The notes beneath the pieces were generated by a model that made no database searches, was not told where the DNA came from, and was given only the letters and a program-made list of their open reading frames with translations. A DNA stretch of 64,000 nucleotides from Eledone cirrhosa (Eukaryota), in NCBI GenBank assembly GCA_964016885.1, contig OZ024743.1, positions 52,824,001-52,888,000 on the forward strand, in the 5' to 3' direction. The position numbers and the translations under genes were made by a program. Shown here piece after piece: positions 37,901 through 64,000 of this stretch (within the stretch, counting starts at the first letter, position 1; the number at the start of each line of letters is the position of its first letter).

Positions 37901-38411
37901 ATCGATCGAGTAACCCATTGAGGCTGCTACACCCCCCTCTATCGGGACATGCCCCTGCATAGTCCCAACGCGCATCTAGGATTCCATTCCAGTCCCCCAC
38001 TAAAAGCAGGGAACGCGACGTTCCTAGAAAAGTCTCCAGACGCTGGAAGAAGTCGGCTCTTTCAGCCCCGAAGGGGGCATAAAGACCGACCAGTCTGAAA
38101 GCCCCGCCTTCACCGCCTCCGACGTCCAGCACCAGTATTCGACCCCCCGGGTCCGAGTGAACAATCTGTACGTCGAGAGCCAGACGTTTATCCAGCAGTA
38201 CGGCAACTACCCCCCCCCCCCCGCCTCCGGGTTGACAGAGAGATGCGTGCATCTCAAAGTCATCGAAGGCGGGAGCCAGCTGTCGCACGCTGCTGATCCG
38301 ACTCTCGCAAACAACCATCACATCTATACTTCGTGACCTGAGGTCACTTAGTAGCTTTGCTTGCTGCCAAGCTGAGCCCAGGCCACGCGCGTTCAAACAG
38401 CCAACTCTCAA
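34977..38411 (-). pseudogene. Tx1 ORF2 (APE endonuclease + RT + C-terminal zinc finger), copy A, with two in-frame TGA stops (36873-36875 and 35091-35093)
   Basis: LNARGL, GDWN, SYLDRF, SDH; KSPGLDG, FRPITLLN, LDQSKAFDRV, IRQGCPLS, AYADD; CPRC..ETVAHALVHC. The stops correspond to TTA (Leu) and GGA (Gly) in copy B. Confidence 0.92.
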
Positions 38412-38416
38412 TTGAT

Positions 38417-40234
38417 CTATTTTGGTGTTGAAAGTGAAGAAAGAAAAGCACTTACCTCTCCGGGTTGTGTAATTTCCATGGCGTCAGGTGTGTTGGGTGG
38501 AGGGATGTTTTGTGGTGGTGTGGGGGTGCCCGAGTGTGGTTGGGTTGGGGTGTTTGGAGTTGTGTCAGGGAGAGAGGAGGTTATGGGGAAATCTTTCAAG
38601 AGGACGCGATTTAACGGTTTTAAACAGGGGGGGCTCACGTCCTGTCTAAATTGTTCTTTTAAGGAACGATAAAGGTCCAGAGGGACCTTTATCATTTTTA
38701 AATGGGTGAAGTTCTCTGATGAGATAAAGTTTGGCCCTTCGGTCTGCACCATAGGGTTATTGTTTATTAATTTAACCAGTTTTTTGTTTTCTTTATTTAT
38801 ATATGTGTATTGCAATGTCTTTTTTTGTGATGCTGTCAATGTTTCGGAGAGGGGAGGCGCAGATTTATTTTTGTTTGTTGAGGGTGGGGTGTTTTTTATT
38901 GGAGTTGGTGTTTGTGTGTGGGTTATTTGTGGTGTGCTGGGTGTGTGCTTTCTTTTTTTTCTTTTAACTTGTCTGAAGGCTTCTCCTCCTTCTTCTTCAG
39001 AAGTTGGGGGAAACTCTTCAGCGCTAGGTGGGAGGGACGTCGTGTCTGGTTGTTTTTTTTTTGCGGGAGGGGTAGATTTGTTGCTGTTTTTTTTATTATT
39101 TGTTTGGAATGCGTTTTGTGGTGGTGGTGGTGCTGTTTGTGTCGTGCTTGTGGTTGGTAATGGTGGTGATGGTGTTTGTGTTGGTGATGGTGGTGGTGAT
39201 TTTTGTGTCGAGCTTGTGTTTGCTGCTGGTGGTGGTGATGTGCTTGGTGGTGTTTGTATTTTGTTTGCTGTGTGTGGTATTAGTGTATTTTTGGAGGTGG
39301 GTGGTGTTGGTGTACTGTTTGTGGTGGGTGTGGGCAATAGTCCTTTTTGGGGGACACGTTTCGGGCAGTTAGCCTTAATGTGTCCCCTTTCCATGCATAA
39401 ATAGCATGCTGGTCTTCTCCCCTCTACAATTATATCTATTGGGGTGAGCTCATCCAGCCAGATGCGATCCGGGATTTGTGCTATTCTTTCGGGCCTCATT
39501 TGGACTAGTAGGTCGAGGCCCATTCCCAGGAACGCATCTCCGGATGCCTTCCCCATTGACAGCACTGTGTCCTCGCCCATGTCTATGAAGCCAGTAATAG
39601 CCCACCAGAAGTCCATTGTGGGCAGCATTGTTTGTATTTTTACTCTCTGTGTTCTTCTACCCATGTAGGAGGGATAGAAGCTGTATGTTGTCGATGAGAG
39701 TGGGCTTATGGAAAGCTCCTCCGCCGTTTCCTTGTCTTTTGTTAGGACCGAAATGCTGCCATAGAGTCGGTCCTTTCGTATGAAGAGAATATTCTTCATA
39801 TAGTCTTTTAGGACCAACTCTATCTCCATTTGGCTGGGCTGTGCTGGCTTTCTTGTTTGGTTTAGGATTGTTCTGAAGAGAACTGTGTTCTCTGTTCTCG
39901 CTTTCTTGAATTCTGGGGGGGAGTTAATGGAAAACATTCCATTCTCCCCCAAAACAATGTGTTTCTTTGCTTCGGCCAGTTTTTCTCTGGCGGCCGTTAG
40001 GTCAATTGGTGTGTATGTAATGGATTGTTTTGTTTTCTGGGCGAAAGTTGCCCTGTCGTTATTTGTATTATTTTCTGTTTGTTTGTTTTCCGTTTGCTCA
40101 TTTTCCTTAACATTTGTTTTTTCATTTTCTTTGTTTGTTTCGTTGTCTAATTTTGTTGTAATTATTTTTTGTTCTTCAGACTTGGGGGGCGTGGCAGAGC
40201 TAATGGCAGACATGTCTGCCATCTTTTCCGCCAT
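38417..40234 (-). CDS. Tx1 ORF1, copy A, intact (nucleic-acid-binding protein)
   Basis: ~605-aa open frame from the first ATG (MAEKMADM); CYLCMERGHIKANC is a CX2CX4HX4C knuckle; Pro/Thr-rich tail. Confidence 0.88.
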   Translation of the reverse strand: MAEKMADMSAISSATPPKSEEQKIITTKLDNETNKENEKTNVKENEQTENKQTENNTNNDRATFAQKTKQSITYTPIDLTAAREKLAEAKKHIVLGENGMFSINSPPEFKKARTENTVLFRTILNQTRKPAQPSQMEIELVLKDYMKNILFIRKDRLYGSISVLTKDKETAEELSISPLSSTTYSFYPSYMGRRTQRVKIQTMLPTMDFWWAITGFIDMGEDTVLSMGKASGDAFLGMGLDLLVQMRPERIAQIPDRIWLDELTPIDIIVEGRRPACYLCMERGHIKANCPKRVPQKGLLPTPTTNSTPTPPTSKNTLIPHTANKIQTPPSTSPPPAANTSSTQKSPPPSPTQTPSPPLPTTSTTQTAPPPPQNAFQTNNKKNSNKSTPPAKKKQPDTTSLPPSAEEFPPTSEEEGGEAFRQVKRKKRKHTPSTPQITHTQTPTPIKNTPPSTNKNKSAPPLSETLTASQKKTLQYTYINKENKKLVKLINNNPMVQTEGPNFISSENFTHLKMIKVPLDLYRSLKEQFRQDVSPPCLKPLNRVLLKDFPITSSLPDTTPNTPTQPHSGTPTPPQNIPPPNTPDAMEITQPGEVSAFLSSLSTPK

Positions 40235-40681
40235 GCTGCCAAGAAAGAAATTTTTCGGCAAAAATAGATATTTATTTTACCCCCTAAAAAGGGGGTAAAT
40301 GCAAAAATGTTTCCCTAAAAAACAGGGGTTAGTGTTCCAAATGTGTTGCACTGAAAAATTTATCCGGTACTTACAATAGTAAGGGTAAATCCCGATGGAA
40401 TAGCAGAGCCGATGTGAAGCGTGTCTTACTCTATCAAGATAGATAGATAAATTTCTATTTATTTGCCACGAGGGCACAAAAGAAGGGGACATTTACACAG
40501 TGGGGGAGTTTACATAAATCGAGTAAAGAAAAAAGGAATAACAATAATAATATAACAATAAAAAGTCCTCAAAAGGGAGGGGGCGTGTTGGGGATTGCAC
40601 ATACCCCCGAAAAGTGTGCAACTCTTTTCGCGGGGGAAGCCCAGAGAGGAGGCGCTCCCCCTTTCCTCTTCACTTCTTCAC

Positions 40682-43600
40682 CTACAGAACAATGTAGAGA
40701 GAAGGCCCATTTACACGGGCCATTCTCGCTTCTTTCACCCACCTTTCATAAAACTGTCTGGGACCAAGCACTTCTCTCTCCATCCTGATTCTTCTTCCGA
40801 AGTGGTATCGGAAGAAGTAAACCAGGTGATGGCCGGAGAGAAAGTCACCCGACCTCAGACCTTTCAGGCGCGTCCACCACACAACCTCTTTCATCATGGC
40901 TATTACGCACAGAAAGACCGCCTCTGCTTCATTTCTGAAGGGAGGAGGCGGCTTGATGTTCACCACAGACTCGGCGGTTAATCGAATCGGCGCCACACGC
41001 GACAGCAGTCGTTCGACGTAGCCCCACAGATCGGCAACGCCCGGGCAGTGTACCAGTGCATGCGCAACGGTTTCCTCGTCGCGCACGCATCTGGGACAGA
41101 TCTTTTTCGCGGGATCCCTGCCCGGGCGCCCGTGTCTGTAGAGCTTTTCTCGAACGGGCAGAGCCCCCCGGTAACACTGCCAGGCTAGGGACCTCTGGAA
41201 GTTGTCCATGGGTCCCGGGCCGAAAGTTCTACCGAACAGGCTGGCCAGTTCGTCCTCCTCCATGCCTAGCGACTCTCCAAGGGTGTCGTCGCCCCTGCTA
41301 GCCACCAACCCTCTATAGAATGTCGAGGTGGATTCTCCACTGACAGTCCGGTCCGCTTGCCAGATAGCCGTGAGCGCCTGGGCACACTCGGTGTGCCAGT
41401 TGCCCAGTTTTCTCGGTCTTTGCTTCACCCAGGATTGCAGTTCGGTGAGCGAGACGAGCTGTGGGAAGGCTCGCCTCACAAACGGGGCCCACACCGGCTG
41501 ACCGTTGAGGAATACCTGTAGATGCCGTAGCCTCAATACGTGCCTACGCATCAACAGCCACGGCATACCCAGCCCTCCTTTCGAAGGGTGCTGGCAGCAG
41601 ATGGATCTCCTCACCATGGGAGGCCGCTTCTTCCAGAGGAACTGGAAGAGCATGCGTTCCATGATGGTGAGCTTTTCCTTGGGGCAAGGCACGACGGTCA
41701 GGCGGTAGTAGATGACGGACGCTATGTAAGCGTTCGTCACCTCCGCCCGACCTTTCAGTGATAGTTTGCACTTGGCCCACTTCTGGGTCAGCGCAAACAC
41801 CCTGCTCGTCACCTCGCCCCAATTCTTCTCCACCTGGAGGTCCGGTCCGAACCAGACCCCGAGCAGCTTCACCGGGCCCTCCGTCCACCGCCCGACGACA
41901 CCGTCTAACGGCATCGGTTTGCCCCTCCACGTTCCGAGTTGCAAACCGACTGACTTGTCCTGGTTCAGCTTAGCCCCCGTCAGCCTTTCGTATTCCTCCA
42001 GTAGGGTGGCGATCGCCCCGATTTCCGAGGCGTCCGCCACCATTACTGTTACGTCGTCGGCATAGGCCGAGACCGCTTTGTGCAATCCCGGTTCCAGGGG
42101 TATGCCCCGCAGCAACTCCAACTTCCGCAGCAGTGGCTCGAGAGTCAATACGTACAGAAGGGAGGAGAGGGGGCACCCCTGTCTGATGGATCGGGTGATT
42201 TGAAACGGCTCCGAGAGGTAGCCGTTTACTTTAATCCTAGAGTAGATGTTGCCACTGTGCATGGCAGAAATCCAGCCCCTGAAAACGGGTCCGAAGCCCG
42301 CCGCCGCTAGCACCGCATCCAGGTAACCATGGTCGACCCTATCGAACGCCTTAGATTGATCCAAGTTGATCAGGGCCCCACCAAAGCCGGGTTCGTAGCC
42401 AACCCTCTCTATGATGTATCGCATGAGGTGGAGGTTGTCGTGAATGGACCTGGACGGGATAGCGCATGTCTGCGCGTCTCCCACCAAACCAACCACCACA
42501 AGCGCCAACCTCTTCGCCAACACCTTGGCCAAAATCTGTAACTCTGCATTCAGCAGAGTTATGGGCCTAAAGTTACTTAAGTCGTCCCCCTTGCTCTCGT
42601 CCTTCCTCACTAGCGTGACCACGCCCTTGGTCACAGAACAGGGAATTCTCCCGTTCTGTTGCCAGTTGCAATAGACAGCCTCGAGGAGTTCGGAGAACAA
42701 GACCGGCATAGCTAAATAAAGTTCGTATGGTAGACCATCGAGACCCGGGGATTTGCGTCTGCTGCATTGGCTGAGCGCTTCCTCGATTTCAGTGGCTGTG
42801 ATTGGCCTTTCGCAGCACTCCGCTTCGCCGCTCGAAAGACGCGGTAGACCGTCGAGGTATGGACCGAAGTCCACATCCCCGTCCGGCCCCCCGCCACCTC
42901 CGAACAGTCGAGCAAAGTGCCTTTGAAAGGTCTCGCACATTCGCTCAGGTTCAAGGATCACCCGTCCATCCTGGTCTCGCAAAGACCGAATGGTGGATTT
43001 AATCCCACTCTTGGCTTCTGTCACGCGGGCCCAGCTAACAGCTTTGGTCCCCTCGTTTCCTAAAGCACGTATTTTACTTCGGACAACGCAGCCTTCGTGC
43101 TTCGCGTCAAAGAACTGGCTCAATGCCGTTCTCGTCGCTAACACTCTGGCTACGTCTCCGCTCCTAATCGCCTCTTCTAGTTTATCTGTTAACTCCCTTT
43201 CCCTCCTATTTCTATTCGCCGCTAGTTCCTTACTGTAACCTATCGAACTTACTCTAATCTCTCTCTTTAGAGATATCCACCACCTACTGTTGACGATTGC
43301 TCCCGTCAACCGCATCTTAACTAAGCTACTAATCCGGTTTCTGTAATCTTTCTTTGTCGGTAAGGACAAGTTCATCTTCCAGTAACCGGGACCCTGTCTA
43401 TGCGTTCTATCAAGGTTGACCACGCAGGTCACTAATTTGTGATCTGAATAGCCAACCATGATCAGTTCTGGACAACTAAATACGTCCCTATCCTTACTCC
43501 TAACCAAAAACCTATCTAGGTACGATCTAGATTGTCCACTGCGGTTTGCCCAGGTCCAGGTTGGCGCAGTTGGACAATCTAGTCGAAATCTATCGACCAG

Positions 43601-44114
43601 GTCGAATCGATCGAGTAACCCCTTGAGGCTGCTACACCCCCCTCTATCGGGACATGCCCCTGCATAGTCCCAACGCGCATCTAGGATTCCATTCCAGTCC
43701 CCCACTAAAAGCAGGGAACGCGACGTTCCTAGAAAAGTCTCCAGACGTTGGAAGAAGTCGGCTCTTTCCGCCCCGAAGGGAGCATAAAGACCGACCAGTC
43801 TGAAAGCCCCGCCTTCACCGCCTCCGACGTCCAGCACCAGTAATCGACCCCCCGGGTCCGAGTGAACAATCTGTACGTCGAGAGTCAGACGTTTATCCAG
43901 CAGTACGGCAACTCCCCCCCCCCCCGCCTCCGGGTTCACAGAGAGATGCGTGCATCTCAAAGTCATCGAAGGCGGGCGCCAGCTGTCTCACGCTGCTGAT
44001 CCGACTCTCGCAAACAACCATCACATCTATACTTTGTGACCTGAGGTCACTTAGAAGCTTTGCTTGCTTCCAAGCTGAGCCCAGGCCACGCGCGTTCAAA
44101 CAGCCAACTCTCAA
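40682..44114 (-). CDS. Tx1 ORF2, copy B; open except for one frameshift at the poly-C tract (~43913-43926)
   Basis: ORFs 43893-44114 and 40682-43966 join at the homopolymer, and all APE and RT motifs are intact. Confidence 0.88.
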
Positions 44115-44119
44115 TTGAT

Positions 44120-45956
44120 CTATTTTGGTGTTGAAAGTGAAGAAAGAAAAGCACTTACCTCTCCGGGTTGCGTAATTTCCATGGCATCAGGTGTGTTGGG
44201 TGGAGGGATGTTTTGTGGTGGTGTGGGGGTACACGTGTGTGGTGGGGTTGGGGTATTTGGAGTTGTGTCAGGGAGAGGGGCGGTTATGGGGAAATCTTTC
44301 AAGAGGACGCGATTCAACGGTTTTAAACAGGGGGGGGCTCACGTCCCGTCTAAATTGTTCTTTTAAGGAACGATAAAGGTCCAGAGGGACCTTTATCATT
44401 TTTAAATGGGTGAAGTTCTCTGTTGAGATAAAGTTTGGCCCTTCGGTCTGCACCATAGGGTTATTGTTTATTAATTTAACCAGTTTTTTGTTTTCTTTAT
44501 TTATATATGTGTATTGCAACGTCTTTTTTTGTGATGCTGTCAATGTTTCGGAGAGGGGAGGCGCAGATTTATTTTTGTTTGTTGAGGGTGGGGTGTTTTT
44601 GATTGGAGTTGGTGTTTGTGTGTGGGTTATTTGTGGTGTGCTGGGTGTGTGTTTTCTTTTTTTTCTTTTAACTTGTCTGAAGGCTTCTCCTCCTTCTTCT
44701 TCAGAAGTTGGGGGAAATTCTTCAGCGCTAGGTGGGAGGGACGTGTTGTGTGGTTGTTTCTTTTTTGCGGGAGGGGTAGATTTGTTACTGTTTTTTTTAT
44801 TATTTGTTTGGAATGGGTTTTGTGGTGGTGGTGGTGGTAATGTTTGTGTCGTGCTTGTGGTTGGTGATGGTGGTGGTGATGTTTGTGTTGTGGTTGGTGG
44901 TGGTGATTTTTGTGTCGTGCTTGTGTTTGGTGCTGGTGGTGGTGATGTTTGTGTTGTGTTTGTGGTTGGTGGTGTCTGTATTTTGTTTGCTGTGTGTGGT
45001 ATTAGTGTATTTTTGGAGGTGGGTGGTGCTGGTGTACTGTTTGTGGTGGGTGTGGGCAATAGTCCTTTTTGGGGGATACGTTTCGGGCAGTTAGCCTTAA
45101 CGTGTCCCCTTTCCATGCATAAATAGCATGCTGGTCTTCTCCCCTCTACAATTATGTCTATTGGGGTAAGGTCATCCAGCCAGATGCGATCCGGGATTTG
45201 TGCTATTCTTTCGGGCCTCATTTGCACTAGTATGTCGAGGCCCATTCCCAGGAACGCATCTCCAGTTGCCTTCCCCATTGACAGCATAGTGTCTTCGCCC
45301 ATATCAATGAAGCCAGCAATAGCCCACCAGAAGTCCATTGTGGGCAGCATTGTTTTTACTTTTACTCTCTGTGTTCTTCTACCCATGTAGGAGGGATAGA
45401 AGCTATATGTTGTCGACGAGAGTGGGCTTAGGGAAAGCTTCTCCGCCGTTTCTTTGTCTCTTGTTAGGACCGAAATGCTGCCATAGAGTCGGTCCTTTCG
45501 TATGAAGAGAATATTCTTCATATAGTCTTTTAGGACTAACTCTATTTCCATTTGGCTGGGCTGTGCTGGCTTTCTTGTCTGGTTCAGTATAGTTCTGTAT
45601 AGAACTGTGTTTTCTGCTCTGGCTTTCTTGAATTCTGGGGGGGAGTTAATGGAAAACATTCCGTTCTCCCCCAAAACAATGTGTTTCTTTGCTTCGGCCA
45701 GTTTTTCTCTGGCGGCAGTTAGGTCAATTGGTGTGTATGTAATGGATTGTTTTGTTTTCTGGGCGAAAGTTGCCCTGTCGTTATTTGTATTATTTTCTGT
45801 TTGTTTGTTTTCTGTTTGCTCATTTTCCTTAACATTTGTTTTTTCATTTTGTTTGTTTGTTTCAATGTCTAATTTTGTTGTAATTATTTTTTGTTCTTCA
45901 GACTTGGGGGGCGTGGCAGAGCTAATGGCAGACATGTCTGCCATCTTTTCCGCCAT
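44120..45956 (-). CDS. Tx1 ORF1, copy B; frameshift in the G8 run (~44330-44337) near the 3' end
   Basis: Homologous to copy A, which has G7 here; knuckle CYLCMERGHVKANC. Confidence 0.85.
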
Positions 45957-46631
45957 GCTGCCAAGAAAGAAATTTTTCGGCAAAAATAGATATTTATTTT
46001 ACCCCCTAAAAAGGGGGTAAATGCAAAAATGTTTCCCTAAATAACAGGGGTTAGTGTTCCAAATGTGTTGCACTAAAAAATTTATCCGGTACTTACAATA
46101 GTAAGGGTAAATCCCGATGGAATAGCGGAGCCGATGCGAAGCGTGTCTTACTCTATCAAGATAGATAGATAGATAGATAGATGGGTTAATGGGTGACAGA
46201 TAGAGTGGAACCATTATACAATTAACTAGAAAAAACTGAGGCTTTTTTATTTCATGAATTAGCTGCTTAAATGGATGGAAGATAAAAGTGGAAGTTTTGT
46301 ACCTCATGAACTGAAGCCAGAGAAATCACTTGGTCCACAGAAACTAGGGTAACTGTTGCTAACTTAGAATATCTAAGCTGGGATATATATCGTCAAACAT
46401 TGCAATTAGTTTTAATGCACGAGTATACATTCAACAAGAGATTTGCTTTCATCATTTCAACTTTGCTCGGTTTAAGAAACAATAGCTAAAATAAGGAACA
46501 GTGAAAATGTTAAACAGTCAACCATAATTTGGTGTTAATGTCTTGTTAATGTTTCACTGGTGTCACTACAACATTGACGCCGGGTTTTATCGGGTTGGCT
46601 ATAATTGCCCTTAATGTATGCTCTGGGATTA

Positions 46632-47601: not shown

Positions 47602-48506
47602 TGAGGTGTGTCAGAAAAGTTCCAGGACTGATGTCACAAAGGATTTATTTCAAACCCAAACTTCACACTAAGAGTTTTCTCCTTCAAAGTAATCCCCCTG
47701 GAGTCTAATGCAGTTTTCCATCCTTTTCTGCCACGCTTGCATGCACTCCTGGAAGGATTCTTCCGGGATCCTCCGCAGTTCCGTCGCCACGGCCTTTTTG
47801 ATGTCGTCCACGTCTTCAAAACGGGTCCCCTCCGAGTCATACTCGAAGATCCATGACTCATCACCGGTGATGACTGTCCCTAGCAAGTCTGGTTCGGTTT
47901 CAAGACGCTCGAGGATGTCCTGGCACACTTGCATGCATCGAACCTTCTGGTCATCGTTCAGCAGTTTTGGCACCATCTTCGCGCAGACTTTCCGCATGTC
48001 CAAATCTTCAGTGAGAATCTTCCAGACGCTGTCCCGATTCATGCCCAGCTCATTTGCCATCAGTTGAACAGTCAGCCGACGATCGCTACGCACCATCTGC
48101 CTGACGCGCTCAACGTGGATCTCAGTCCTGGTTGTTGAGGGCCTTCCGCTCCTGGGGTCATCTTCCACGTCCTCGCGTCCTTCTTTAAACCTTTTGCACC
48201 ACTCAAAAACACGTGAACGTGTCTCCATACACTTGCTGCAGCAATCCCAGTGCTTCTGACGGAATTTTACCCAACTGTACCAGACACTTCAAGTTTGTTC
48301 GTTGCTCTGTGGTCATTGCTTGACGACCTAAAACAGAGGACATGTATATAAAATTATGAAGAAAAAGGTTTGATCGCTGCAGAGAGCTAATATTACAGTT
48401 ACATACTCCAGGGGATTACTTTGAAGGAGAAAACTCTTAGTGTGAAGTTTGAGTTTGAAATAAATCTTTTGTGACGTCAGTCCTGGAACTTTTCTGACAC
48501 ACCTCG
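47602..48506 (-). mobile_element. Internally deleted mariner transposon with ~103-bp TIRs and TA target duplication
   Basis: TIRs 47602-47704 / 48405-48506. The transposase starts at ATG 48316 (MTTEQRTNLK) and includes VFEWCKRFKEGREDVEDDPRSGRP, KMVPKLL and TGDESW, then jumps to GTRF..WQKRMENCI..GDYFE; HDNA and YSPDLAPxD are missing. Confidence 0.93.
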
Positions 48507-52230: not shown

Positions 52231-52275
52231 AATGTTTATTGTTCAACATTCACAATGCTACTTACTCACGAGGGA

Positions 52276-53037: not shown

Positions 53038-53285
53038 CTAATCTTTACATCCTAGAAAGTTCTTGCTTATAGATCCATGTTGAAAATATTGGTTTTTTGA
53101 CGACCTTAGCGCTGTTGTGAAGAAGTTGTTTCCATGAATTATGTATAGCTGGACTCTATCAACAAACATGGAATCGATGTCTCGAAGGCTGCTTAAAAAC
53201 CCACTTGGTTTTGCATTCGGAATTAGAGAACAGCCCTGTCTTCGTAACCATTTTGAACATCTCACAGCTTGGACGGCATTAGTTC
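53038..53285 (-). CDS. Terminal exon of the mucin-hemopexin gene (blade 4 and C-terminal Cys)
   Basis: Acceptor CTACTTCTCCAG, phase 1; TNAVQAVRC..LRDIDSMFVDRVQLYIIHGNNFF..SISKNFLGCKD*. Confidence 0.85.
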
Positions 53286-54397
53286 CTGGAGAAGTAGATA
53301 GATAGATATATAAATAAATATACACACACATATATATACATACACACACACACACGCGCGCGCACACACACACATCTATATATATATATTATTTAATTAC
53401 ATAATAAACAACACAAAATAATTATTGGGCTGGACATTTCTGTAAGAATCGTCTAGTCTCTTGAAACCTTTGGTAATGGAATAATTATATTGTCTTGTTT
53501 ATTATGTAATTAAATAGCTCTGTATTGTACATAGAGCACTCTTCTTTCCTTTACCTTTTCTACAGAAATACTTAACACATTAACCCCCCCCCCCACACAC
53601 ACACACACGCACGCACGCGCACACACACACGCACGCACGCGCACACACACACACACATATAAATATATATATATATATAGGATAACAAAATATCGTTATA
53701 GGTAATCCAGTTAGAGGTTGTGAATACTTCTTATTATGGATAGTTTTAGCGTACGGCGTTGTTTGACTCAACAAGACGTTTACGTAGAGGAGGAGTTTAT
53801 GATTTCACTTGTATTCCTATGTAAGTTTATCTTGGAGTAATAGAATTGAAAAAGTGGAGAATAACATGGTCAACAGTACAAAAAAAGGGGTCTAACAATT
53901 GTCTAACAATTGTTTCACTGATAAAGATGTCTAAAAATTGCTGAACACTAGAAGCAGTGCCACTCAATTTTAAATACGATGTTAGCTCTATCAGATCTTC
54001 AGAAACTGTTGATTGAAAATATATGTAACCGGCAAATTTACAAATTCAAATTACATCATCAATAATAATATTAATAATAAAGATATAGAGAGAAAAAAGA
54101 AGAGGAGATAGATACAGTAAAGAAAGAAAGGAAAAGAAAAAGAAAAAAGAAGGAAAAAGAAAAAGAGAAAGAGAAAAAATAAGAAAAAGGAGAAATTATT
54201 ACAGAGAAAAAAAATATATATAAAGAGATTTTTAATTATTTTTAATTATGCTTGTCTCTCCTCTATCTCTGATCATTCTCTATATATTTTCTTCTCTTTA
54301 TATATATATTTTTAATCAGTGCTAATTGATTATAATTTATATTATATATACATGTCAATGAAGTTTACATGATGTAACATATTGTTGCTACATGAGT

Positions 54398-54712
54398 TAC
54401 AGGTGTATATACCTGTGTATATACAGGTATATCCACCTGTATATATACCTGTGTATACACACGTATATATACCTGTATATATCAGGTATATACACAGGTA
54501 TGTACACCTGTATATACACGTGTATATACCTGTGTATATACAGGTATATATACCTGTGTAAACACAGGTATATATACCTGTATATACAGGTATATATACC
54601 TGTATATACACAGGTATATATACCTATAAATACAGGTGTATATACCTGTATACACAGGTGTATACACCTGTATATACCTGTGTATATACAGGTGTATATA
54701 CCTGTATATATA
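54398..54712. repeat. Intronic minisatellite built from TATACAGG / CCTGTATA self-complementary units
   Basis: Directly visible. Confidence 0.85.
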
Positions 54713-55116
54713 GTGTACGTCTACTTTATGTAAAATAACAAAATAAAGGAACAAGATTGATTTATATTGAAACAATTTTATATGAATGGGTCCCTTTTTG
54801 TAGACTTCTTCAAAATCGTAGTCTCACACCAACTGGGTCACCTGACCCCGTCTCTGACCTTGCATTAGTGCGCGTGTGTGTAGGACACTTCCCGTCCTTC
54901 TAAAAAGAATACGTTTTATGAAGACACAACCTAAGTCTCAGCGGTCCTGAAAAGGGTCAAAGGCATTGTATTTATATTCCTCCCACCAGTCTCAGTGGCC
55001 CTAAAAAGTTATCATTAGCACTATCTTACTCTCCTTCCATGGCCACTGCCATTCCCACTATGACTAAACAGTAAATGTAAAACCGACACAGTTAACCTCC
55101 CTATCTTATTATTTGA

Positions 55117-56564
55117 ATTGGCAGTATCGGTAGCGGGTTGGACATGCTTTCCAGCATAGTTACGTCCCTTTACGATTTGAGTTCAAATCCCGCCGAGGTT
55201 AGCTTTGTCTTTCATCCTTACGGTGTCGATAAAATAAAGTACCAGTAATGCACTGGGTAATTGCTGGCCTTGTTCCAAAAGTAGAAACAATTATTACTGA
55301 TTTTATTGATTTAAACCAAAGATTCCCCCCTCCCCCAACTTTTTATACCATCGATCCCTTCGAGAAATCTTTGACCCTTTTATCGATCCCAGACATGTAC
55401 AAAATAAATCAGTAAGCTTTTTTTAATGGGATAGAATTTATTCAATCTACAAAATCTGAGAATGTCATGAAAGGCCATTGACATAAATAATTGAGCAATA
55501 TCTTATAACAACAAAACACTACTAAAGGGAACAGAAAAGGAAGAAAAAAAAAGAAAGAAGGATGAAGCGGTGAAAGAAAGAGGGGGGGGGGGGGGTAGTC
55601 ACTACACTCCAGTCTGAGTGGTGCCTCATATGAAATAAAGTATCAATAAAGACTAATTATATATAAAACAGAAACCTGTTTAAGTTGTATTGTATTTTAT
55701 TGTATTTGGTTAGTAAAGTGGTTAGAGTATGGAACAAATGCTTAGAAGGATTTATTCCGACTTATACTGAGTTCAAATCCCGCCGAAGTCAACTTTACTT
55801 TTCAGCCTTCTGAGATCGATAAACTAAAGTACACATCGAATTACCGGGTCGATTTAATAGATTTTCTTCCCCTCCTCACCCCGCAAAAAGATTCAGGCCT
55901 TGAGCCAAAACTGGGTATTATTGTCGATTGGCTGTATCGGTAGAGGGTCGGACGCTATGCTTTGCAGCAAAGATTTACCGCCCTCTATGGTGTGAGTTCA
56001 AATCCCGCCAAAGTTAACTTTGCCTTTCATCCTTACGGGGTCGATAAAATAAAGTACCAGTAATACACTGGGATGATTGCTGGCCTGTGCCATAAGTAGA
56101 AACAATTATTTTATGTACTTTCATTTCTTATACAAATGGTTTTGGCGCTCTCTGATTTGATCTTTCATAAGATTCGATCTCAGTTCAATCAAATATCAAC
56201 GTTCTCGACAACAGCGCTACTAAACTAACCGTTATGGGCCTATAACTCATGAGGTTGTCGTAGGGGTGCCATATTGACCTATGGAGTTTCTAGGGTACTT
56301 TTAAACCTTGCGGAGCCCATCCCCTCTCCAGATCTGAATTTACCAGATTTCTTCCAGAGAAGACTAAAGAGTGGGAGAAAGGAAGTGAGAAAGAGATGTA
56401 GAAAAAGAATCGACTCCAGTACTAGACTGGTACATTTTCATCGACCTCAAATGGATGAAAGGCAAAGTTCACCATAGTGGGATTTGAACTCAGAGAGCAG
56501 AGAGTCGGAACGAATACTGCAAACATTCTAACCGACGTTCTAACAACTCTACCAATTTACCGCC
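55117..56564. mobile_element. Intronic SINE family 1 cluster (55117-55295 +, ~55715-55920 +, 55927-56109 +, 56408-56564 -)
   Basis: Recurrent B box and core. Confidence 0.8.
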
Positions 56565-56613
56565 TAAACTAACCGTTATAATGCCTTACAAAAATATCAA
56601 AATCAGATGTTAC

Positions 56614-56770
56614 CGTTGAATAAGTAAAGAGTTCGCCTCCTGGTGTGAACGTAAGCAGCAGTTACCTGCCCTTGTATGGCGAATCCGAATTCTTCCGTTA
56701 TATTCTTAGGGTAGTTTCGATCGATACAGAACCTACCACGACATTTCCGGTACCTCCAAATATGGTCACC
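56614..56770 (-). CDS. Internal hemopexin-repeat exon (not in the ORF track)
   Basis: Acceptor TTTCTTTTAG, donor GTAAC; GDHIWRYRKCRGRFCIDRNYPKNITEEFGFAIQGQVTAAYVHTRRRTLYLFNG; phase 0 in, phase 1 out. Confidence 0.9.
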
Positions 56771-57522
56771 CTAAAAGAAATAAAAAGAATACATTTTTGC
56801 TACATAAAATGACGTAATATAACTGCGATGTTTCTTGGTACTGTTGTTGTTTAGTCCAATGTCAGCCGAGGTCCAGGAGACCAACAATCTATTGTTAGGA
56901 ATAAATATTTCTTACGAATAAAAAAGAAAATTTTGTACATGGCTGAATTCAATAAATGTAATCCTAGTTTTTCGAATAACATTCGATTCATTTGCAATTA
57001 TGCAAACAAGCCTCAATTTTATAGCCATGTCAGTAGAATGAACCCTTCATTCTTGCTCTTGTGTTGGCATGTGCGTATTTTGCATAATATGTAAATTAGA
57101 ATGGCTATTTTAGTTTAGTTCAAGTTTGTATTTAACATAAATATGTGACTACTGTAAATTCTCTTGGAAGGCGGAAGCATAAAATTACTTGTTTTCTGAA
57201 TAACGATATAAATATACGATTCCCAACCCGGGAGCACATTATGTCCTCAAGACACTATATTTGACGTTGATTCAGTCTACTCACCTGGCAAAAATGAGTT
57301 ATACCTGTAATTCAAGGGATCAGCCTTGTCACACATTGTATCACGCCGAATGTCTGTGAAATGCTCAGCCACTTACGTGTTAATTTCAGGAAGAGACACT
57401 TCAATTGATGAAATCAGCTGGAGCACTCATCATCGAAAACGACGGAGGTCCAACATTAATATTTATAGAATACACATCAATGCATACGCCAATGAGGATG
57501 TAAGTTGTAGAGAAATGTTTAC

Positions 57523-57683
57523 CTGAAACAAATATGTCCTGAACCATTTCTGTTTCCTGCCAAACTCCAAAGACACCGCTGCCGTGATGTTTTCTGGACT
57601 TCTTGGAAACATTCCAGATACCAGTGAACTATTTCTCTGTTTGGTTGGTAAGTAACACAGGGAGAACCAATGGACTAAGTCTC
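57523..57683 (-). CDS. Internal hemopexin-repeat exon
   Basis: Acceptor TTTTCTATCCAG, donor GTAAAC; DLVHWFSL..SLVSGMFPRSPENITAAVSL..RTYLFQ; phase 1 in, phase 0 out. Confidence 0.87.
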
Positions 57684-57713
57684 CTGGATAGAAAACAGTC
57701 AAGACATGTGTGA

Positions 57714-58206
<493 letters not shown>

Positions 58207-58236
58207 AACAAATAAATAACTGAGTACGGAACTCAC

Positions 58237-61200
58237 CACTGAAGATATATAGAATACGACTGGGGTCAACAAATGTAGCATCGGCGGATATGAAACATAC
58301 AGTGTTACTGGAATTTCCGTTTACTTCCGAAGATGGATGAGCTGTTGTTGTTGTTGTTGTGGTGGTGGTGGTGGTGGTGGTGGTGGTGGTGGTGTCTGCA
58401 AGAGGCACTACTACATCAGTAGACTGAGGTGTTTGTACGTCCCACGGATATACCGTCTGTTTTTGACCAATCATATCAGTTGTGACTTGCCAATTAACCC
58501 CATTATTTCGATTTGACTGAGCTTGATCCAAGTTTTTAACGGGTACCAAGAATGACATGAGAGTCGAACTTCTTTGTTCTGGCATTTGTAAACTCTCTTT
58601 CACAACTGAAATATTTGTTAGTGAGATTTGAACGTTCGTTGAACCGGTTCGAAATTCATTTTCCGATTCAGGACCAAGCGTCTCTGTTTCCAGTAGACTT
58701 CGTTTGACCCGCTTCAAGTAGCTGCGTTCAAACTTCTGTGGGTTCCCGTTCTCTACTGGGGTGTTAGATTTCCTCAAGAGCTCTGTTTTCTTACCAATTT
58801 TACCACGAGGCCACAACTGTGAGTTGTGTTTATTCCCCTTACGAAGCAGTCTGGACAGCGTTCGTTTGTTCCCCAAGACGTTCGTTTGTTCCCCAGCGTT
58901 CGTTTGTTCCCCATTATATTTCTGTATCTTTGCGATACGTTTCTGTGTGGTGGGTGTTTGATACGAACTCATCACTTGTACGTCTGCAACTGTGTGTGAG
59001 TTGTATGCCGTCTTTTGCTTATCTGGTCGATGGTTGGAGTTTTCCAGGGAAGTTTTACTGGACAAATGTAACACATAGGAAACATTTTGGTCCTTAAAAC
59101 TAGTTATGATAGTACTATTGGTGATGTTACTATTGTTGGTATTAATGATGGTTAGTGAGTTAGTGCGGCTGTCACTGGCGTTGGTTGTGTTAGTAAGGTT
59201 GCTCTTATTGTTAGTGATGGTCGTAGTATTTGTGGTGTTATTGGCGGTGCTAATGAGTTTGTTGGTAATGTTTATGCTAGAAGCACTTTTGTTAAGGGCG
59301 ATGCTCTTAGTGGTGTTAAGGGCATTGGTAGTGGTGGTGGTGGTAGGGCTAACAGCACTGATGGTGGTGGTAGTGGTGGTTTTAGAGGCGTTGTTGATGT
59401 CAGCTGTGTTGTTGGTGTTGGTAATATTCGTGTTTGGAGTATTGTTGGTGACGTTGGTGTGATTGTTAATAATACCAGTGTTGTTAGTGCCATGTGTCGT
59501 GGTGATGGTTGGGGAGTTAACGGTGACAGTAGTAGTGGAGAAAATGGTGTTGGACTTTGGTTTTCCCAAAGCTGCAGTTCTATTTGTGGTTGTTGTTCTA
59601 GCTGCTGTTGACGCCATCATCGTGCTCTTCCACTTCGTTTGAAGCTTAGTCTTTATAGTTTCTGCTGTGGGTACTATCGTGGGTCCTACTATGGGTCCTT
59701 CTGTAGGTCCTGCTGCATGTATTAGTGTAGGTCTTGCTGTAGGTACTATTGAGGACACTATTATGGTTGCTCCTGTGAGTAATATTGTGGGTTCTACTGT
59801 AGGTACTATTGTAGGTGGTACTGTAGGTGATATTGTGGGTGGTACTGTAGGTATTGCTGTAGGTGGTACTGTAGGTGGTACTGTAGCTACTATTGTGGGT
59901 GGTACTGTAGGTGATATTGTGGGTGGTACTGTAGGTATTGCTGTGGGTGGTACTGTAGCTACTATTGTGGGTGGTACTGTAGCTACTATTGTGGGTGGTA
60001 CTGTAGGTATTGCTGTAGGTGGTACTGTAGCTACTATTGTGGGTGGTACTGTAGGTATTGCTGTAGGTGGTACTGTAGGTATTGCTGTAGGTGGTACTGT
60101 AGCTACTATTGTGGGTGGTACTGTAGCTACTATTGTGGGTGGTACTGTAGGTGATATTGTGGGTGGTACTGTAGGTATTGCTGTGGGTGGTACTGTAGCT
60201 ACTATTGTGGGTGGTACTGTAGGTACTATTGTAGGTGGTACTGTAGGTAATGCTGTAGGTGGTACTGTAGGTATTGCTGTAGGTGGTACTGTAGGTACTA
60301 TTGTAGGTGGTACTGTAGGTAATGCTGTAGGTGGTACTGTAGGTATTGCTGTAGGTGGTACTGTAGGTACTATTGTAGGTGGTACTGTAGGTACTATTGT
60401 AGGTGGTACTGTAGGTACTATTGTAGGTGGTACTGTAGGTACTATTGTGGGTGGTACTGTAGGTAATGCTGTAGGTGGTACTGTAGGTATTGCTGTAGGT
60501 GGTACTGTAGGTATTGCTGTAGGTGGTACTGTAGGTATTGCTGTAGGTGGTACTGTAGGTATTGCTGTAGGTGGTACTGTAGCTACTATTGTGGGTGGTA
60601 CTGTAGCTACTATTGTAGGTGGTACTGTAGGTATTGCTGTAGGTGGTACTGTAGGTACTATTGTGGGTGGCACTGTAGGTATTGCTGTGGGTGGTACTGT
60701 AGGTACTATTGTAGGTGGTACTGTAGGTATTGCTGTAGGTGGTACTGTAGGTACTATTGTGGGTGGTACTGTAGGTACTATTGTAGGTGGTACTGTAGGT
60801 AATGCTGTGGGTGGTACTGTAGGTACTATTGTAGATCCTGCTGTGTGTAATGCTGTGAGTTCTTCTGTGGAAAATATTGTGGTTTCTGCTGAGGTCACCG
60901 TTTTAGGTCCTTCTGTTGGTGCCATTGTGGTTCCTGCTGTGGGTAATATTGACGGTTCTGCTGTAGGTCCCTCTTTGAGTGCTATTGGGTGTCCTGCTCC
61001 GTTAAACAGGGCCTGAAAAGATGTGTTTCTAAGGGATATCTGTTGATTCCTGAAAGTTGCATCTTCAACAATAGACATTCTCGGAAGTGGAATCTTAGCA
61101 GTGGGTCCCGGGACCTTAGAAGGTGCTGATTGCAGGGGTCCCGGGACCTTAGAAGGTGCTGTTTGCAGGGGTCCCGGGACCTTAGAAGGTGCTGTTTGCA

Positions 61201-63426
61201 GGTTGACATAAGTCTGGAATGTAGAAATGTCGGGTCGTAATAGGGTGTGTGTTAAGGGAAGAAACCTAGAAATGGTTGGATGGTTTATAAATATCGAATG
61301 TGCTCGGGTGGTGTGTGCTGTTAATATTGCTGTTGGTGACGTTGGTGGTGGTGTTTTGGGTGGTGTCTGTGGTGGTGGTGGTGTTTGGGGTGGTCCCTGT
61401 GGTGGGGGTGGTGTTTGGGGTGGTGTCTGTGGTGGTGGTGGTGTTTGTGGTGGTGGTGGTGTTTGTGGTGGTGGTGGTGTTTGTGGTGGTGGTGTTTGTG
61501 ATGGTGGTGGTGTTTGTGGTGGTGGTGGTGTTTGTGGTTGTGGTGTTTGTGGTGTTTGTGGTGGTGGTGGTGGTGGTGGTGGTGTTTGTGGTGGTGGTGT
61601 TTGTGGTGGTGGTGTTTGTGATGGTGGTGGTGTTTGTGGTGGTGGTGGTGTTTGTGGTTGTGGTGTTTGTGGTGTTTGTGGTGGTGGTGGTGGTGTTTGT
61701 GGTGGTGGTGTTTGTGATGGTGGTGGTGTTTGTGGTGGTGGTGGTGTTTGTGGTTGTGGTGTTTGTGGTGTTTGTGGTGGTGGTGGTGGTGGTGTTTGTG
61801 GTGGTGGTGTTTGTGGTTGTGGTGTTTGTGGTGTTTGTGGTGGTGGTGGTGGTGGTGTTTGTGGTGGTGGTGTTTGTGGTTGTGGTGTTTGTGGTGTTTG
61901 TGGTGGTGGTGGTGGTGGTGTTTGTGGTGGTGGTGTTTGTGGAGATGTTTGTGATGGTGGTGGTGTTTGTGGGGTAGGTGATGTTGCTAGAGGTGTTTGT
62001 GGGGGTGGAGGATGTGATGCTCGCGGCAATGGTAGTGGTACTGTAGGTAAAGACATCACCTCCATGACAGTATTCTGTCTCGTGGTTGTCAACTGGCCTT
62101 GAATAAATCGTGTTGTTGATGATGATGGTGATATTGGCGGCGACGGTAGTGGTGATGATGGCAGTTGTGGTGGTGGCTGTGGTGGTGGTGGTGATGTTGC
62201 TGCTGGTGTAGGTAGTGGTGGTGGCTGTGGTGGTGGTGGTGATGTTGCTGCTGGTGTAGGTAGTGGTGGTGATGGTGGTGTAGGTAGTGGTGGTGGCTGT
62301 GGTGGTGGTGGTGATGTTGCAGCTGGTGTAGGTAGTGGTGGTGGTGGTGGTGGTGATGATGTTGCAGCTGGTGTAGGTAGTGGTGGTGGTGGTGGTGATG
62401 TTGCAGCTGGTGTAGGTAGTGGTGGTGGTGGTGGTGGTGGTGTTGGTGGTGGTGATGTTGCAGCTGGTCTAGGTAGTGGTGGTGCTGGTGGTGTTGGTGG
62501 TGGTGATGTTGCAGCTGGTGTAGGTAGTGGTGGTGGTGGTGGTGGTGGTGTTGGTGGTGGTGATGTTGCAGCTGGTGTAGGTAGTGGTGGTGGTGGTGGT
62601 GATGTTGCAGCTGGTGTAGGTAGTGGTGGTGGTGGTGGTGGTGGTGGTGTTGGTGGTGGTGATGTTGCAGCTGGTGTAGGTGGTGGTGGTGGTGGTGATG
62701 TTGCAGCTGGTGTAGGTAGTGGTGGTGGTGGTGATGTTGCAGCTGGTGTAGGTAGTGGTGGTGGTGACGTAATTTTTGCCAACGAAGACTCAGTCAATAT
62801 ACGGTCGTTTCCCTCCGACTCTGGGGGCCAAACATAATCCTTTGATGGGTGAGACTGGGAAGAAGTCTGTGTTTGACCTCCCGATCCAGGGATCACATTC
62901 GGGTTACCAAAGGTCACAGTCTCGAATGGTACTCTATGTGTTTCTGCTACTGTTGTTGTCATTACTGATGTTGCTGTTGCTGTTGTTGTTGCTTTTGCCG
63001 TTGTTTCTGTTGTTGCCGTTGTTGTTGTTGTTGTTGTTGTTGTTCTGGCAGTGTTGATTAGTCTTGTTGAGTTTGGTTTCGTAGATACATTTGATATGAC
63101 ACCTGTAGTCAGATGGATTGACTTGGTCACGTGTGATTTATGTTCGATCCCCCGTGTTATTGGTTTGATCACGTGAGTCCGTCTGGTCACGGGTTCTGTT
63201 GGTCTTGTCACGTGATTTCTATCCGTTTTAGATCTAATCACATGTGTTTTTTTGAACACGTGTGTTGTTTGTCTGGCCATGTCTGTTTCCGATTCGGTTA
63301 CATCTGTTGTGGTGGGTCTTAGTCTGTCTGGTAAGGTCGGTGATGACGGGAGTGATGACGACGACGACGGTGGCGTTCGGAAGAAGAAAAATGGACGTCT
63401 GGGAAATATTCCTCCCTTACCCACAC
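58237..63426 (-). CDS. Giant 5,190-bp exon: Pro/Thr-rich mucin-like region ending in the first hemopexin blade
   Basis: Open frame of 1,730 codons including non-repetitive segments; acceptor CACCTCTACCACTAG and donor GTGAGT, phase 1 at both ends; repeats [16 protein letters not shown] and TVPPT(I/A)(V/I)P; ends [22 protein letters not shown]. Confidence 0.9.
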
Positions 63427-63886
63427 CTAGTGGTAGAGGTGAATGGTGAGATATTTACTAATAAAATATAATTCAAAAAATAGTAAAATATACTTCTAGA
63501 AAAATATACATATGGTTTTTGTTTTAGAAATTCTGAAATACTCTTCCAGAAACAGAGTACTGGAAATAATAAAATATAGTTCTAGAAATTTGGAAGCAGG
63601 GTTCTAGAATTCAATTTTTCTTTCTAAAAATAGTAACATAAGGTACTAGAAATACTAAAATATGATTCTAGAACTAGAAATAACAAAAGACAGTGCTAGA
63701 ATGATTAAAATATAATTTTGAAATAATAAATTTGATGTAAGAAATGTTAAAACTAAGTTTTTAGTGATATTAGATTGTATTCTATAAATACAGATATATA
63801 ACTCTAGAAAAACATTTTTAGAAATACCATGACTCTAAAATTGAATGTTTCTAGTGATATTAAAATACAAAGATATAAAAGTAAAA

Positions 63887-64000
63887 ATAATTGTTTCTAC
63901 TTTTAGCACAAGGCCAGCAATTAACCAGTGTATTACTGGTACTTTATTTTATCGACCCCGTAAGGATGAAAGGCAAAGTTAACCTCGACGGGATTTGAAC
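63887..64000 (-). mobile_element. SINE family 1, cut by the window edge
   Basis: Tail, core and B box present. Confidence 0.85.

What the first reader, a model, noticed from the sequence alone, without database searches (positions are those of the whole stretch)
53038..63426. Hidden gene: ~1,700-aa mucin-like stalk fused to a four-bladed hemopexin domain (giant-hinge MMP or lubricin analogue)
Seen: four exons with canonical GT-AG sites and matching phases (1-1, 1-0, 0-1, 1-stop). They give C..DA.F....LY.FSG, ITAA....TYLFQG..WRY...YPK.I, VTAA....LYLFNG and IDS....LYIIHG...FLGC, with Cys at both ends of the domain. Known: MMPs have a catalytic domain, a short Pro-rich hinge and hemopexin, commonly with a phase-1 intron at the Gly of LYG; vertebrate PRG4/lubricin has mucin plus hemopexin. 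The giant exon begins by completing an NGT codon (Gly if the upstream exon ends in G). Inference: an MMP with a hinge far longer than usual, or a convergent lubricant/mucus protein.
Basis: partly seen in the sequence, partly recalled or inferred. Interest (0 to 1): 0.75.

Follow-up and report, generated by a model that had tools for sequence, protein, structure and literature searches.

The report
Matrix metalloproteinase with giant mucin hinge
This animal genome (likely an octopod) holds a matrix-metalloproteinase gene whose normally short linker is an open 1,709-codon proline/threonine-rich stretch, likely a sugar-coated mucin stalk that would hold the cutting domain far from its binding domain; no RNA yet shows that the full-length form is made.

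Summary
Just beyond the window, on the same strand, lie two Peptidase_M10 exons with an intact zinc motif and Met-turn, plus two upstream exons, one with a cysteine switch. Eight GT-AG exons join in frame: 2,119 codons, no internal stop. The hinge is 1,709 residues (53% Pro/Thr/Ser, no Cys), about 27 times the MMP-9 linker. It is not a chance frame: 917 non-repeat codons hold 0 stops against 107 in the other two frames, and every repeat recurrence is in frame. The C-terminus scores as hemopexin; a 51%-identical protein from another source runs across two of the junctions and models as an MMP hemopexin propeller. Paralogues in this genome use the same hinge exon at 27-210 residues. A furin-type RVKR site lies 134 residues before the propeller (5% chance level). 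Open: no RNA run, internal splice-like sites could give shorter forms, and the signal-peptide and first pro-domain exons were not securely found. Verdict: an extreme new variant of a known kind.

The parts
63427..64000 (-). 3' part of the 1,681-nt intron that leads to the rest of the gene, which lies beyond the window (numbering continued; G000:C4 = number + 52,824,000): zinc-motif/Met-turn exon 65257-65108 (phase 1-1), catalytic exon 66289-66064 (0-1), exon 80013-79913 (1-0), cysteine-switch exon 88562-88437 (1-1), and an unconfirmed candidate first exon 103602-103420
58237..63426 (-). Giant exon, 5,190 nt, phase 1-1: 1,709-residue hinge plus the start of hemopexin blade 1 with the first Cys
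62135..62740 (-). Repeat block A (PTPAATS plus Pro runs, 11 cores)
61331..61969 (-). Repeat block B (QTP plus Pro runs; 39 QTP in the hinge)
59795..60820 (-). Repeat block C (8-codon TVPPT-type unit, about 42 copies)
59000..59600 (-). Asn/Thr-rich unique stretch holding most of the 26 N-glycosylation sequons (approximate limits)
58700..58711 (-). Furin-type RVKR site in a basic stretch, 134 residues before the hemopexin Cys
   Evidence: chance level 261 of 5,000 shuffles
57523..57683 (-). Hemopexin exon 2, phase 1-0
56614..56770 (-). Hemopexin exon 3, phase 0-1
53038..53285 (-). Hemopexin exon 4 with closing Cys and stop codon; no membrane or GPI tail
52235..52240 (-). First AATAAA after the stop; candidate poly(A) signal
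   Evidence: inference

Best explanation
This is a single-copy matrix-metalloproteinase gene with intact catalytic motifs whose hinge exon has expanded to 1,709 Pro/Thr/Ser-rich codons, and its product is likely a secreted enzyme in which a glycosylated, mucin-like stalk separates the catalytic head from the hemopexin propeller. Shown: exon structure, open frame, zinc motif, Met-turn, variant cysteine switch, hemopexin homology, repeats kept in frame. Inferred: secretion as a zymogen (signal exon not securely found); dense O-glycosylation of the 467 Ser/Thr and N-glycosylation of the Asn-rich stretch; an extended stalk of up to roughly 0.4-0.6 micrometre. Working model: it acts like the MMP-9 O-glycosylated linker scaled up about 27-fold. 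The propeller binds matrix or a cell-surface partner, and the hydrated stalk both lodges the enzyme in a glycan-rich layer (mucus, jelly or loose matrix) and lets the head cut at a distance from the anchor. A share of molecules (my estimate 40%) would be cut by a furin-type convertase at RVKR, releasing a protease-tipped mucin and a separate propeller fragment of 342 residues. The hinge most likely grew by in-frame tandem expansion inside an ancestral hinge exon that was already repeat-prone.
For: M10 exons adjacent and in phase. Eight exons give 2,119 codons without an internal stop. 0 stops in 917 non-repeat codons against 107 off-frame. All exact 15-mer recurrences in the three repeat blocks are at multiples of 3 (405 of 405, 473 of 473, 864 of 864), while a nearby look-alike CCA/ACA satellite has 141 of 2,150 out of frame. 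A second allele seen in 2 of 3 DNA runs of one sample differs by a 21-nt, in-frame deletion and 3 substitutions, none a stop (one event, 1-in-3 chance). P0063 aligns at 51% over 176 residues without gaps across two exon junctions, matches only this locus in the genome, passes Pfam Hemopexin and its model's best matches are MMP-2, MMP-1, vitronectin and MMP-13 hemopexin domains. In 4 of 15 other MMP loci where the hinge exon could be resolved it has the same layout at 27, 39, 127 and about 210 residues, the last two with Thr-rich tandem repeats. MMP-9 linker function from passages of PMC3980597, PMC6627178, PMC2886829.
Against: The exon with pro-domain helices 1-2 was not found in 113 kb upstream, and the signal-peptide exon is only a candidate. 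The cysteine switch departs from PRCGxPD and the residues before it are diverged. A strong donor-like site lies 6 nt inside the giant exon, and in-phase acceptor-like sites lie at 62820, 62040, 60864, 58395 and 58323, so shorter spliced forms are possible. P0063 stops short of the hinge, so conservation of the long hinge in another species is not shown. The fold test used the orthologue, with an alignment made of MMP sequences, so it leans towards hemopexin; confidence was moderate (pLDDT 68, pTM 0.52, TM about 0.4). T-poor satellites in this genome give frames of 587-959 codons by themselves, so the repeat blocks alone prove nothing. Glycosylation, cleavage, tissue and substrate are untested.
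Confidence: 0.7

Rival explanations
1. An ordinary-sized MMP is the main product: internal splice sites remove most of the giant exon, and the full-length form is minor or tissue-restricted.
For: Donor-like site at 63420 and four more in-phase donor-like sites at 59058-58794; in-phase acceptor-like sites including 58395 and 58323, which would leave hinges of about 35 and 11 residues. Paralogues manage with 27-39 residues.
Against: An unused 5-kb stretch should collect stops: 0 in 917 unique codons against about 53 per off-frame; repeats stay in frame. The acceptor at 63426 scores 6.2 on a simple tract score, above all 190 in-phase internal AGs (best 5.6).
Confidence: 0.15
2. A lubricin-like lubricant: mucin plus hemopexin working without proteolysis, either because the giant exon is transcribed apart from the catalytic exons or because the head is shed or inactive.
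For: Mucin-like stalk followed by a hemopexin domain is the lubricin layout (PMC13067954 passages); stalk is Pro/Thr-rich without Cys.
Against: Catalytic exons are adjacent, in phase and keep all three His, the Glu and the Met-turn; no somatomedin-B match upstream; the same exon layout holds in MMP paralogues. Cleavage at RVKR would leave the stalk on the protease, not on the propeller.
Confidence: 0.07
3. A decaying gene: the 5' pro-domain exon is lost, and the hinge is swelling by unselected slippage.
For: First pro-domain exon not found; diverged residues before the switch.
Against: No stop or frameshift in 2,119 codons, canonical splice sites at all eight exons, paired Cys shared with the orthologue, in-frame allele.
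Confidence: 0.06

Closest known systems
MMP-9 (gelatinase B) with its O-glycosylated (OG) linker
   Same: Catalytic M10 domain joined to a hemopexin domain by a Pro-rich linker; in MMP-9 it is 64 residues with 22 Pro and about 12-14 O-glycans and sets domain spacing, receptor and TIMP binding (PMC3980597, PMC6627178 passages).
   Different: Hinge here is 1,709 residues in three repeat blocks plus unique, Asn-rich and basic stretches, with an internal RVKR; no fibronectin-II inserts in the spliced catalytic domain; not an MMP-9 orthologue on any evidence here.
Argonauta hians collagenase-3-like GAB1608138.1 (P0003) and the C19 and C22b paralogues of this genome
   Same: Group together on the catalytic-domain tree (support 83/85, not starred). 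P0003, C19 and this gene share an extra Cys four residues before the first zinc His and another after the Met-turn; C19 shares the exon layout.
   Different: P0003 is closer to C22b (100/99) than to this gene, has a 125-residue hinge and Gln in place of the catalytic Glu; C19 has a 127-residue hinge.
Lubricin / PRG4
   Same: Central Pro/Thr-rich repeat region followed by a C-terminal hemopexin domain; 1,404 residues (PMC13067954 passages).
   Different: N-terminus here is an MMP pro-catalytic unit, not somatomedin B; repeat units differ from KEPAPTTP.
Drosophila Mmp2
   Same: Invertebrate MMP with a longer than usual hinge (about 200 residues; recalled, not confirmed by any search).
   Different: Predicted GPI-anchored and furin-activated at the pro-domain (PMC5353688 passages); here no tail after the closing Cys and the RxKR site is in the hinge.

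Membership tests
Matrix metalloproteinases (M10A, PF00413) | Zinc motif HExxHxxGxxH with catalytic Glu | tested here: met
   HEFGHSLGLMH in the exon at 65257-65108, beyond the window; PF00413 over cut-off
Matrix metalloproteinases (M10A, PF00413) | Met-turn after the zinc motif | tested here: met
   Met aligns with that of MMP-12 and MMP-20 chains
Matrix metalloproteinases (M10A, PF00413) | Structural Zn/Ca-binding segment of the catalytic domain | tested here: met
   PF00413 E 1.9e-21 for the exon at 66289-66064; 40-44% identity to P0003 and P0004 over the domain
Matrix metalloproteinases (M10A, PF00413) | Cysteine switch PRCGxPD | tested here: met
   Variant RKCGVPD; relatives P0003, C19 and C22b also lack the leading Pro-Arg form (KRCG)
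Matrix metalloproteinases (M10A, PF00413) | Complete helical pro-domain (PF01471-like) | tested here: inconclusive
   Exon for helices 1-2 not found in 113 kb upstream; searches for a 40-codon diverged exon are weak
Matrix metalloproteinases (M10A, PF00413) | Signal peptide | tested here: inconclusive
   Candidate exon at 103602-103420 with moderate hydropathy (peak 2.15 over 11 residues), not joinable as it stands; no signal-peptide predictor available
Matrix metalloproteinases (M10A, PF00413) | Four-bladed hemopexin domain closed by terminal Cys pair | tested here: met
   Profile E 4e-13 against shuffles; orthologue passes PF00045 and models onto MMP hemopexin domains; the spliced sequence itself was not folded
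Matrix metalloproteinases (M10A, PF00413) | Zinc-dependent, TIMP-inhibitable proteolysis | not testable with these tools
   needs an assay
Lubricin / PRG4 | N-terminal somatomedin-B domains | tested here: not met
   5 PF01033 matches in the genome, none upstream of this gene nearby; the nearest is about 295 kb downstream (lower-bound search)
Lubricin / PRG4 | Central mucin region of KEPAPTTP-type repeats | tested here: not met
   Pro/Thr-rich repeats are present but of other units
Lubricin / PRG4 | C-terminal hemopexin domain | tested here: met
Membrane-type / GPI-anchored MMPs | Hydrophobic tail after the hemopexin domain | tested here: not met
   Stop two codons after the closing Cys; no downstream exon matching the hydrophobic tail of P0063 in the window
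Mucin-type glycoproteins (PTS domain) | Long tandem-repeat region rich in Pro, Thr, Ser | tested here: met
   52.8% PTS over 1,709 residues, no Cys
Mucin-type glycoproteins (PTS domain) | Dense O-glycosylation | not testable with these tools
   inferred from composition only

The most novel reading that the evidence does not exclude
A mucin-protease chimera made as a convertase-processed polyprotein: cleavage at the hinge RVKR site yields an active MMP head carried on a roughly 1,575-residue glycosylated mucin tail that anchors it in mucus or jelly, plus a free hemopexin module with its own role; the enzyme belongs to a cephalopod MMP group whose extra Cys pair staples the S1' specificity loop.
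Probability: 0.3. Interest if true: 0.7.

Novelty: new variant of a known kind. Interest (0 to 1): 0.5.

Why it matters
The MMP hinge is usually a few tens of residues, and MMP-9's 64-residue linker is the textbook long case. A natural MMP with a 1,709-residue hinge would show that catalytic and hemopexin domains can be kept up to hundreds of nanometres apart, or be separated by a convertase, and still be selected for. That bears on whether the two domains must cooperate on one substrate. One genome offers a graded series (27, 39, 127, about 210 and 1,709 residues) in the same exon, which makes hinge length testable. It also shows a gene type that annotation can miss, since the exon looks like satellite DNA.

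Tried and rejected
No RNA holder listed; the three runs found cover introns and exons alike with no spliced joints, so they behave as DNA of one sample, possibly the source of the assembly. This is no evidence on expression. Homologue search with hinge residues 1440-1729: none of 1,659 candidates scored. Search for MMP domains in proteins of 1,323-3,775 residues: none of 71 candidates scored, weak by the tool's own note. Atlas search with the 3' end of the giant exon: no usable hit; with P0063 hemopexin clusters at 0.87-0.88, a lead only. Of 3 hits to exon 4 among 1.84 billion representatives, P0064 (fish sialoadhesin-like) and P0065 (insect repeat protein) were dropped as repeat-inflated chance matches. 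Pro-domain exon candidates near 80,650 (end of a minisatellite, no acceptor) and near 103,020 (no fitting donor) were rejected. The 2.8-kb CCA/ACA repeat at 106,570-103,780 was considered as an N-terminal mucin exon and set aside: its Pro/Thr frame slips twice and ends in a stop. A further exon for a membrane tail was not found. Hinge exons of 11 of 15 other MMP loci could not be resolved within the DNA fetched; two plant/rotifer rows (P0051, P0054) were left out of the tree because the motif search missed them. Earlier findings: none near or in this genome; the 8 listed concern other hemopexin or MMP-like proteins of microbes and viruses.

Full report
Setting. The window is G000:C4:52824001-52888000 of a 3.0-Gb animal genome. 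Its nearest named relative in my searches is an Argonauta hians protein, so an octopod is likely; this is inference. Coordinates above 64,000 continue the window numbering.

Observation. The minus strand holds an open frame of 1,762 codons at 63454-58166. The exon inside it runs from an AG at 63426 to a GT after 58237, 5,190 nt. Three further exons follow at 57683-57523, 56770-56614 and 53285-53038.

What lies upstream. A genome search with PF00413 gave 26 matches, two of them 1.1 and 2.1 kb past the window end on the same strand. They are exons at 66289-66064 and 65257-65108, both over the Pfam cut-off. Comparison with homologues found two more exons, at 80013-79913 and 88562-88437. The latter carries a variant cysteine switch and matches the C19 paralogue's exon in phase and end codons. 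Joined in a script, the eight exons give 2,119 codons including the stop, with no internal stop. The exon for the first pro-domain helices was not found in 113 kb. A candidate ATG exon with a weak signal-like stretch lies at 103602-103420 but has the wrong phase to join directly. The 5' end is therefore open.

Is the giant exon coding? This needs care, because T-poor satellites in this genome give frames of 587-959 codons in all three phases. The hinge, however, has 917 non-repeat codons in three stretches, with 0 stops in frame and 107 in the other two frames; shuffles left a frame open in 0, 3 and 0 of 2,000 trials. In the three repeat blocks all 1,742 exact 15-mer recurrences are spaced by multiples of three, while the satellite 40 kb upstream has 141 of 2,150 out of frame. 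Contigs of three DNA runs of one sample cover 58390-59640; one matches the assembly, two show an allele with a 21-nt in-frame deletion and three substitutions (Pro to Arg, Asn to Ser, one silent). That is a single event and weak support. Against this, donor-like and acceptor-like sites inside the exon could give shorter forms, and no RNA could be examined.

The C-terminus. Pfam barely sees the separate exons (1 of 4, E 0.15). The spliced 210 residues score 35.4 bits on a profile of 41 MMP tails; best shuffle 3.0. A search of 1.84 billion representatives with exon 4 gave 3 hits, one real: P0063, an unnamed 239-residue protein from a 975-nt contig. It aligns at 51% over 176 residues without gaps across two of the junctions, which independently supports those joins, and it matches only this locus in the genome. 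It passes PF00045. Its model (pLDDT 68, pTM 0.52) matches MMP-2, MMP-1, vitronectin and MMP-13 hemopexin domains best; the alignment used was made of MMP sequences, so this test leans that way. P0063 has a hydrophobic tail that this gene lacks and does not reach the hinge.

How unusual is the hinge? It is 1,709 residues, 25.5% Pro, 20.3% Thr, 7.0% Ser, without Cys, with 26 N-sequons. Of 62 homologues fetched (mostly fish), 38 could be measured: 36 have 31 residues or fewer, P0003 has 125, and one fish model with an apparent foreign insert has 431. Of 15 other MMP loci in this genome, 4 were resolved: 27, 39, 127 and about 210 residues, each in one exon that starts in phase 1 and also begins blade 1; the two longer ones are Thr-rich tandem repeats. 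So the giant exon is the usual hinge exon, expanded. MMP-9's linker is 64 residues (PMC3980597, passages); a moth MMP has 35 (PMC3675644, passages).

Extra features. One RX[K/R]R site, RVKR, lies at hinge residues 1572-1575 in a basic stretch; shuffles give such a site in 261 of 5,000 trials, so it is suggestive only. The consensus is the one cited for furin activation of fly MMPs (PMC5353688, passages). The pro-domain junction has only a KR pair. The catalytic domain has an extra Cys four residues before the first zinc His and another after the Met-turn, shared with C19 and P0003. From memory these positions line the S1' pocket and loop, so a disulfide there would shape specificity; untested.

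Mechanism. Most likely a secreted zymogen whose glycosylated stalk spaces head and propeller and lodges the enzyme in a hydrated matrix, as MMP-9's OG domain does on a small scale: flexible, setting domain distance and receptor or TIMP binding (PMC6627178 and PMC2886829, passages). At 0.25-0.36 nm per residue (recalled values) the stalk would span 430-615 nm. Convertase cleavage would split off the propeller with 134 hinge residues. Rivals: a short spliced form dominates (0.15), a non-proteolytic lubricant (0.07), a decaying gene (0.06).

Novelty. Seven full-text searches listed no paper describing a cephalopod MMP with a mucin-like hinge or any MMP hinge of this size; I saw listings and abstract starts, and passages of PMC10755359, which had nothing on it. 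The library lacks most subscription journals, and my search for long MMP proteins was weak. No supplements were read. Every part is of a known kind; the scale of the hinge and the internal convertase-type site are new. Verdict: new variant of a known kind, interest 0.5.

Noticed in passing
G000:C4 about 52,927,780-52,930,570 (continued numbering 103780-106570), minus strand: A 2.8-kb CCA/ACA mosaic repeat open in all three frames (890-959 codons) just upstream of the candidate first exon; reads as Pro/Thr with two frame slips. Probably non-coding, but it resembles the hinge repeats.
   Followed up: partly
window 35091-40276 and 40682-45998, minus strand: Two tandem non-LTR retrotransposon copies with endonuclease and reverse-transcriptase frames; the second has a 1,101-codon frame, the first is interrupted.
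   Followed up: partly
window 47668-48288, minus strand: A 206-codon frame with an HTH_32 match, likely a Tc1/mariner-type transposase remnant (family name from memory).
   Followed up: no
G000:C28 about 89,765,100-89,765,800 (L035), minus strand: Another MMP paralogue has a hinge exon of about 210 residues made mostly of a perfect 4-residue Thr/Pro repeat.
   Followed up: partly
G000:C19 about 6,667,530-6,667,970 (L021), plus strand: The C19 MMP has a 127-residue hinge with Lys/Thr/Pro repeats and shares the extra catalytic-domain Cys pair.
   Followed up: partly
P0003 (Argonauta hians GAB1608138.1) and G000:C22 about 2,519,000-2,555,400: P0003 has Gln instead of the catalytic Glu, so it is probably an inactive MMP; its counterpart here (C22b) showed no zinc-motif exon in the 39 kb fetched downstream.
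   Followed up: partly
G000:C28:124,501,957 and C28:135,434,352; C1569:11,024; C21:35,075,520: Two C28 MMP loci have identical zinc-motif exons in opposite orientation, with near copies on C1569 and C21: a recent duplication or an assembly duplicate.
   Followed up: no
window about 58860-58915: A short three-copy repeat in the giant exon whose third copy is read in another frame; the 21-nt allele deletion falls here.
   Followed up: partly
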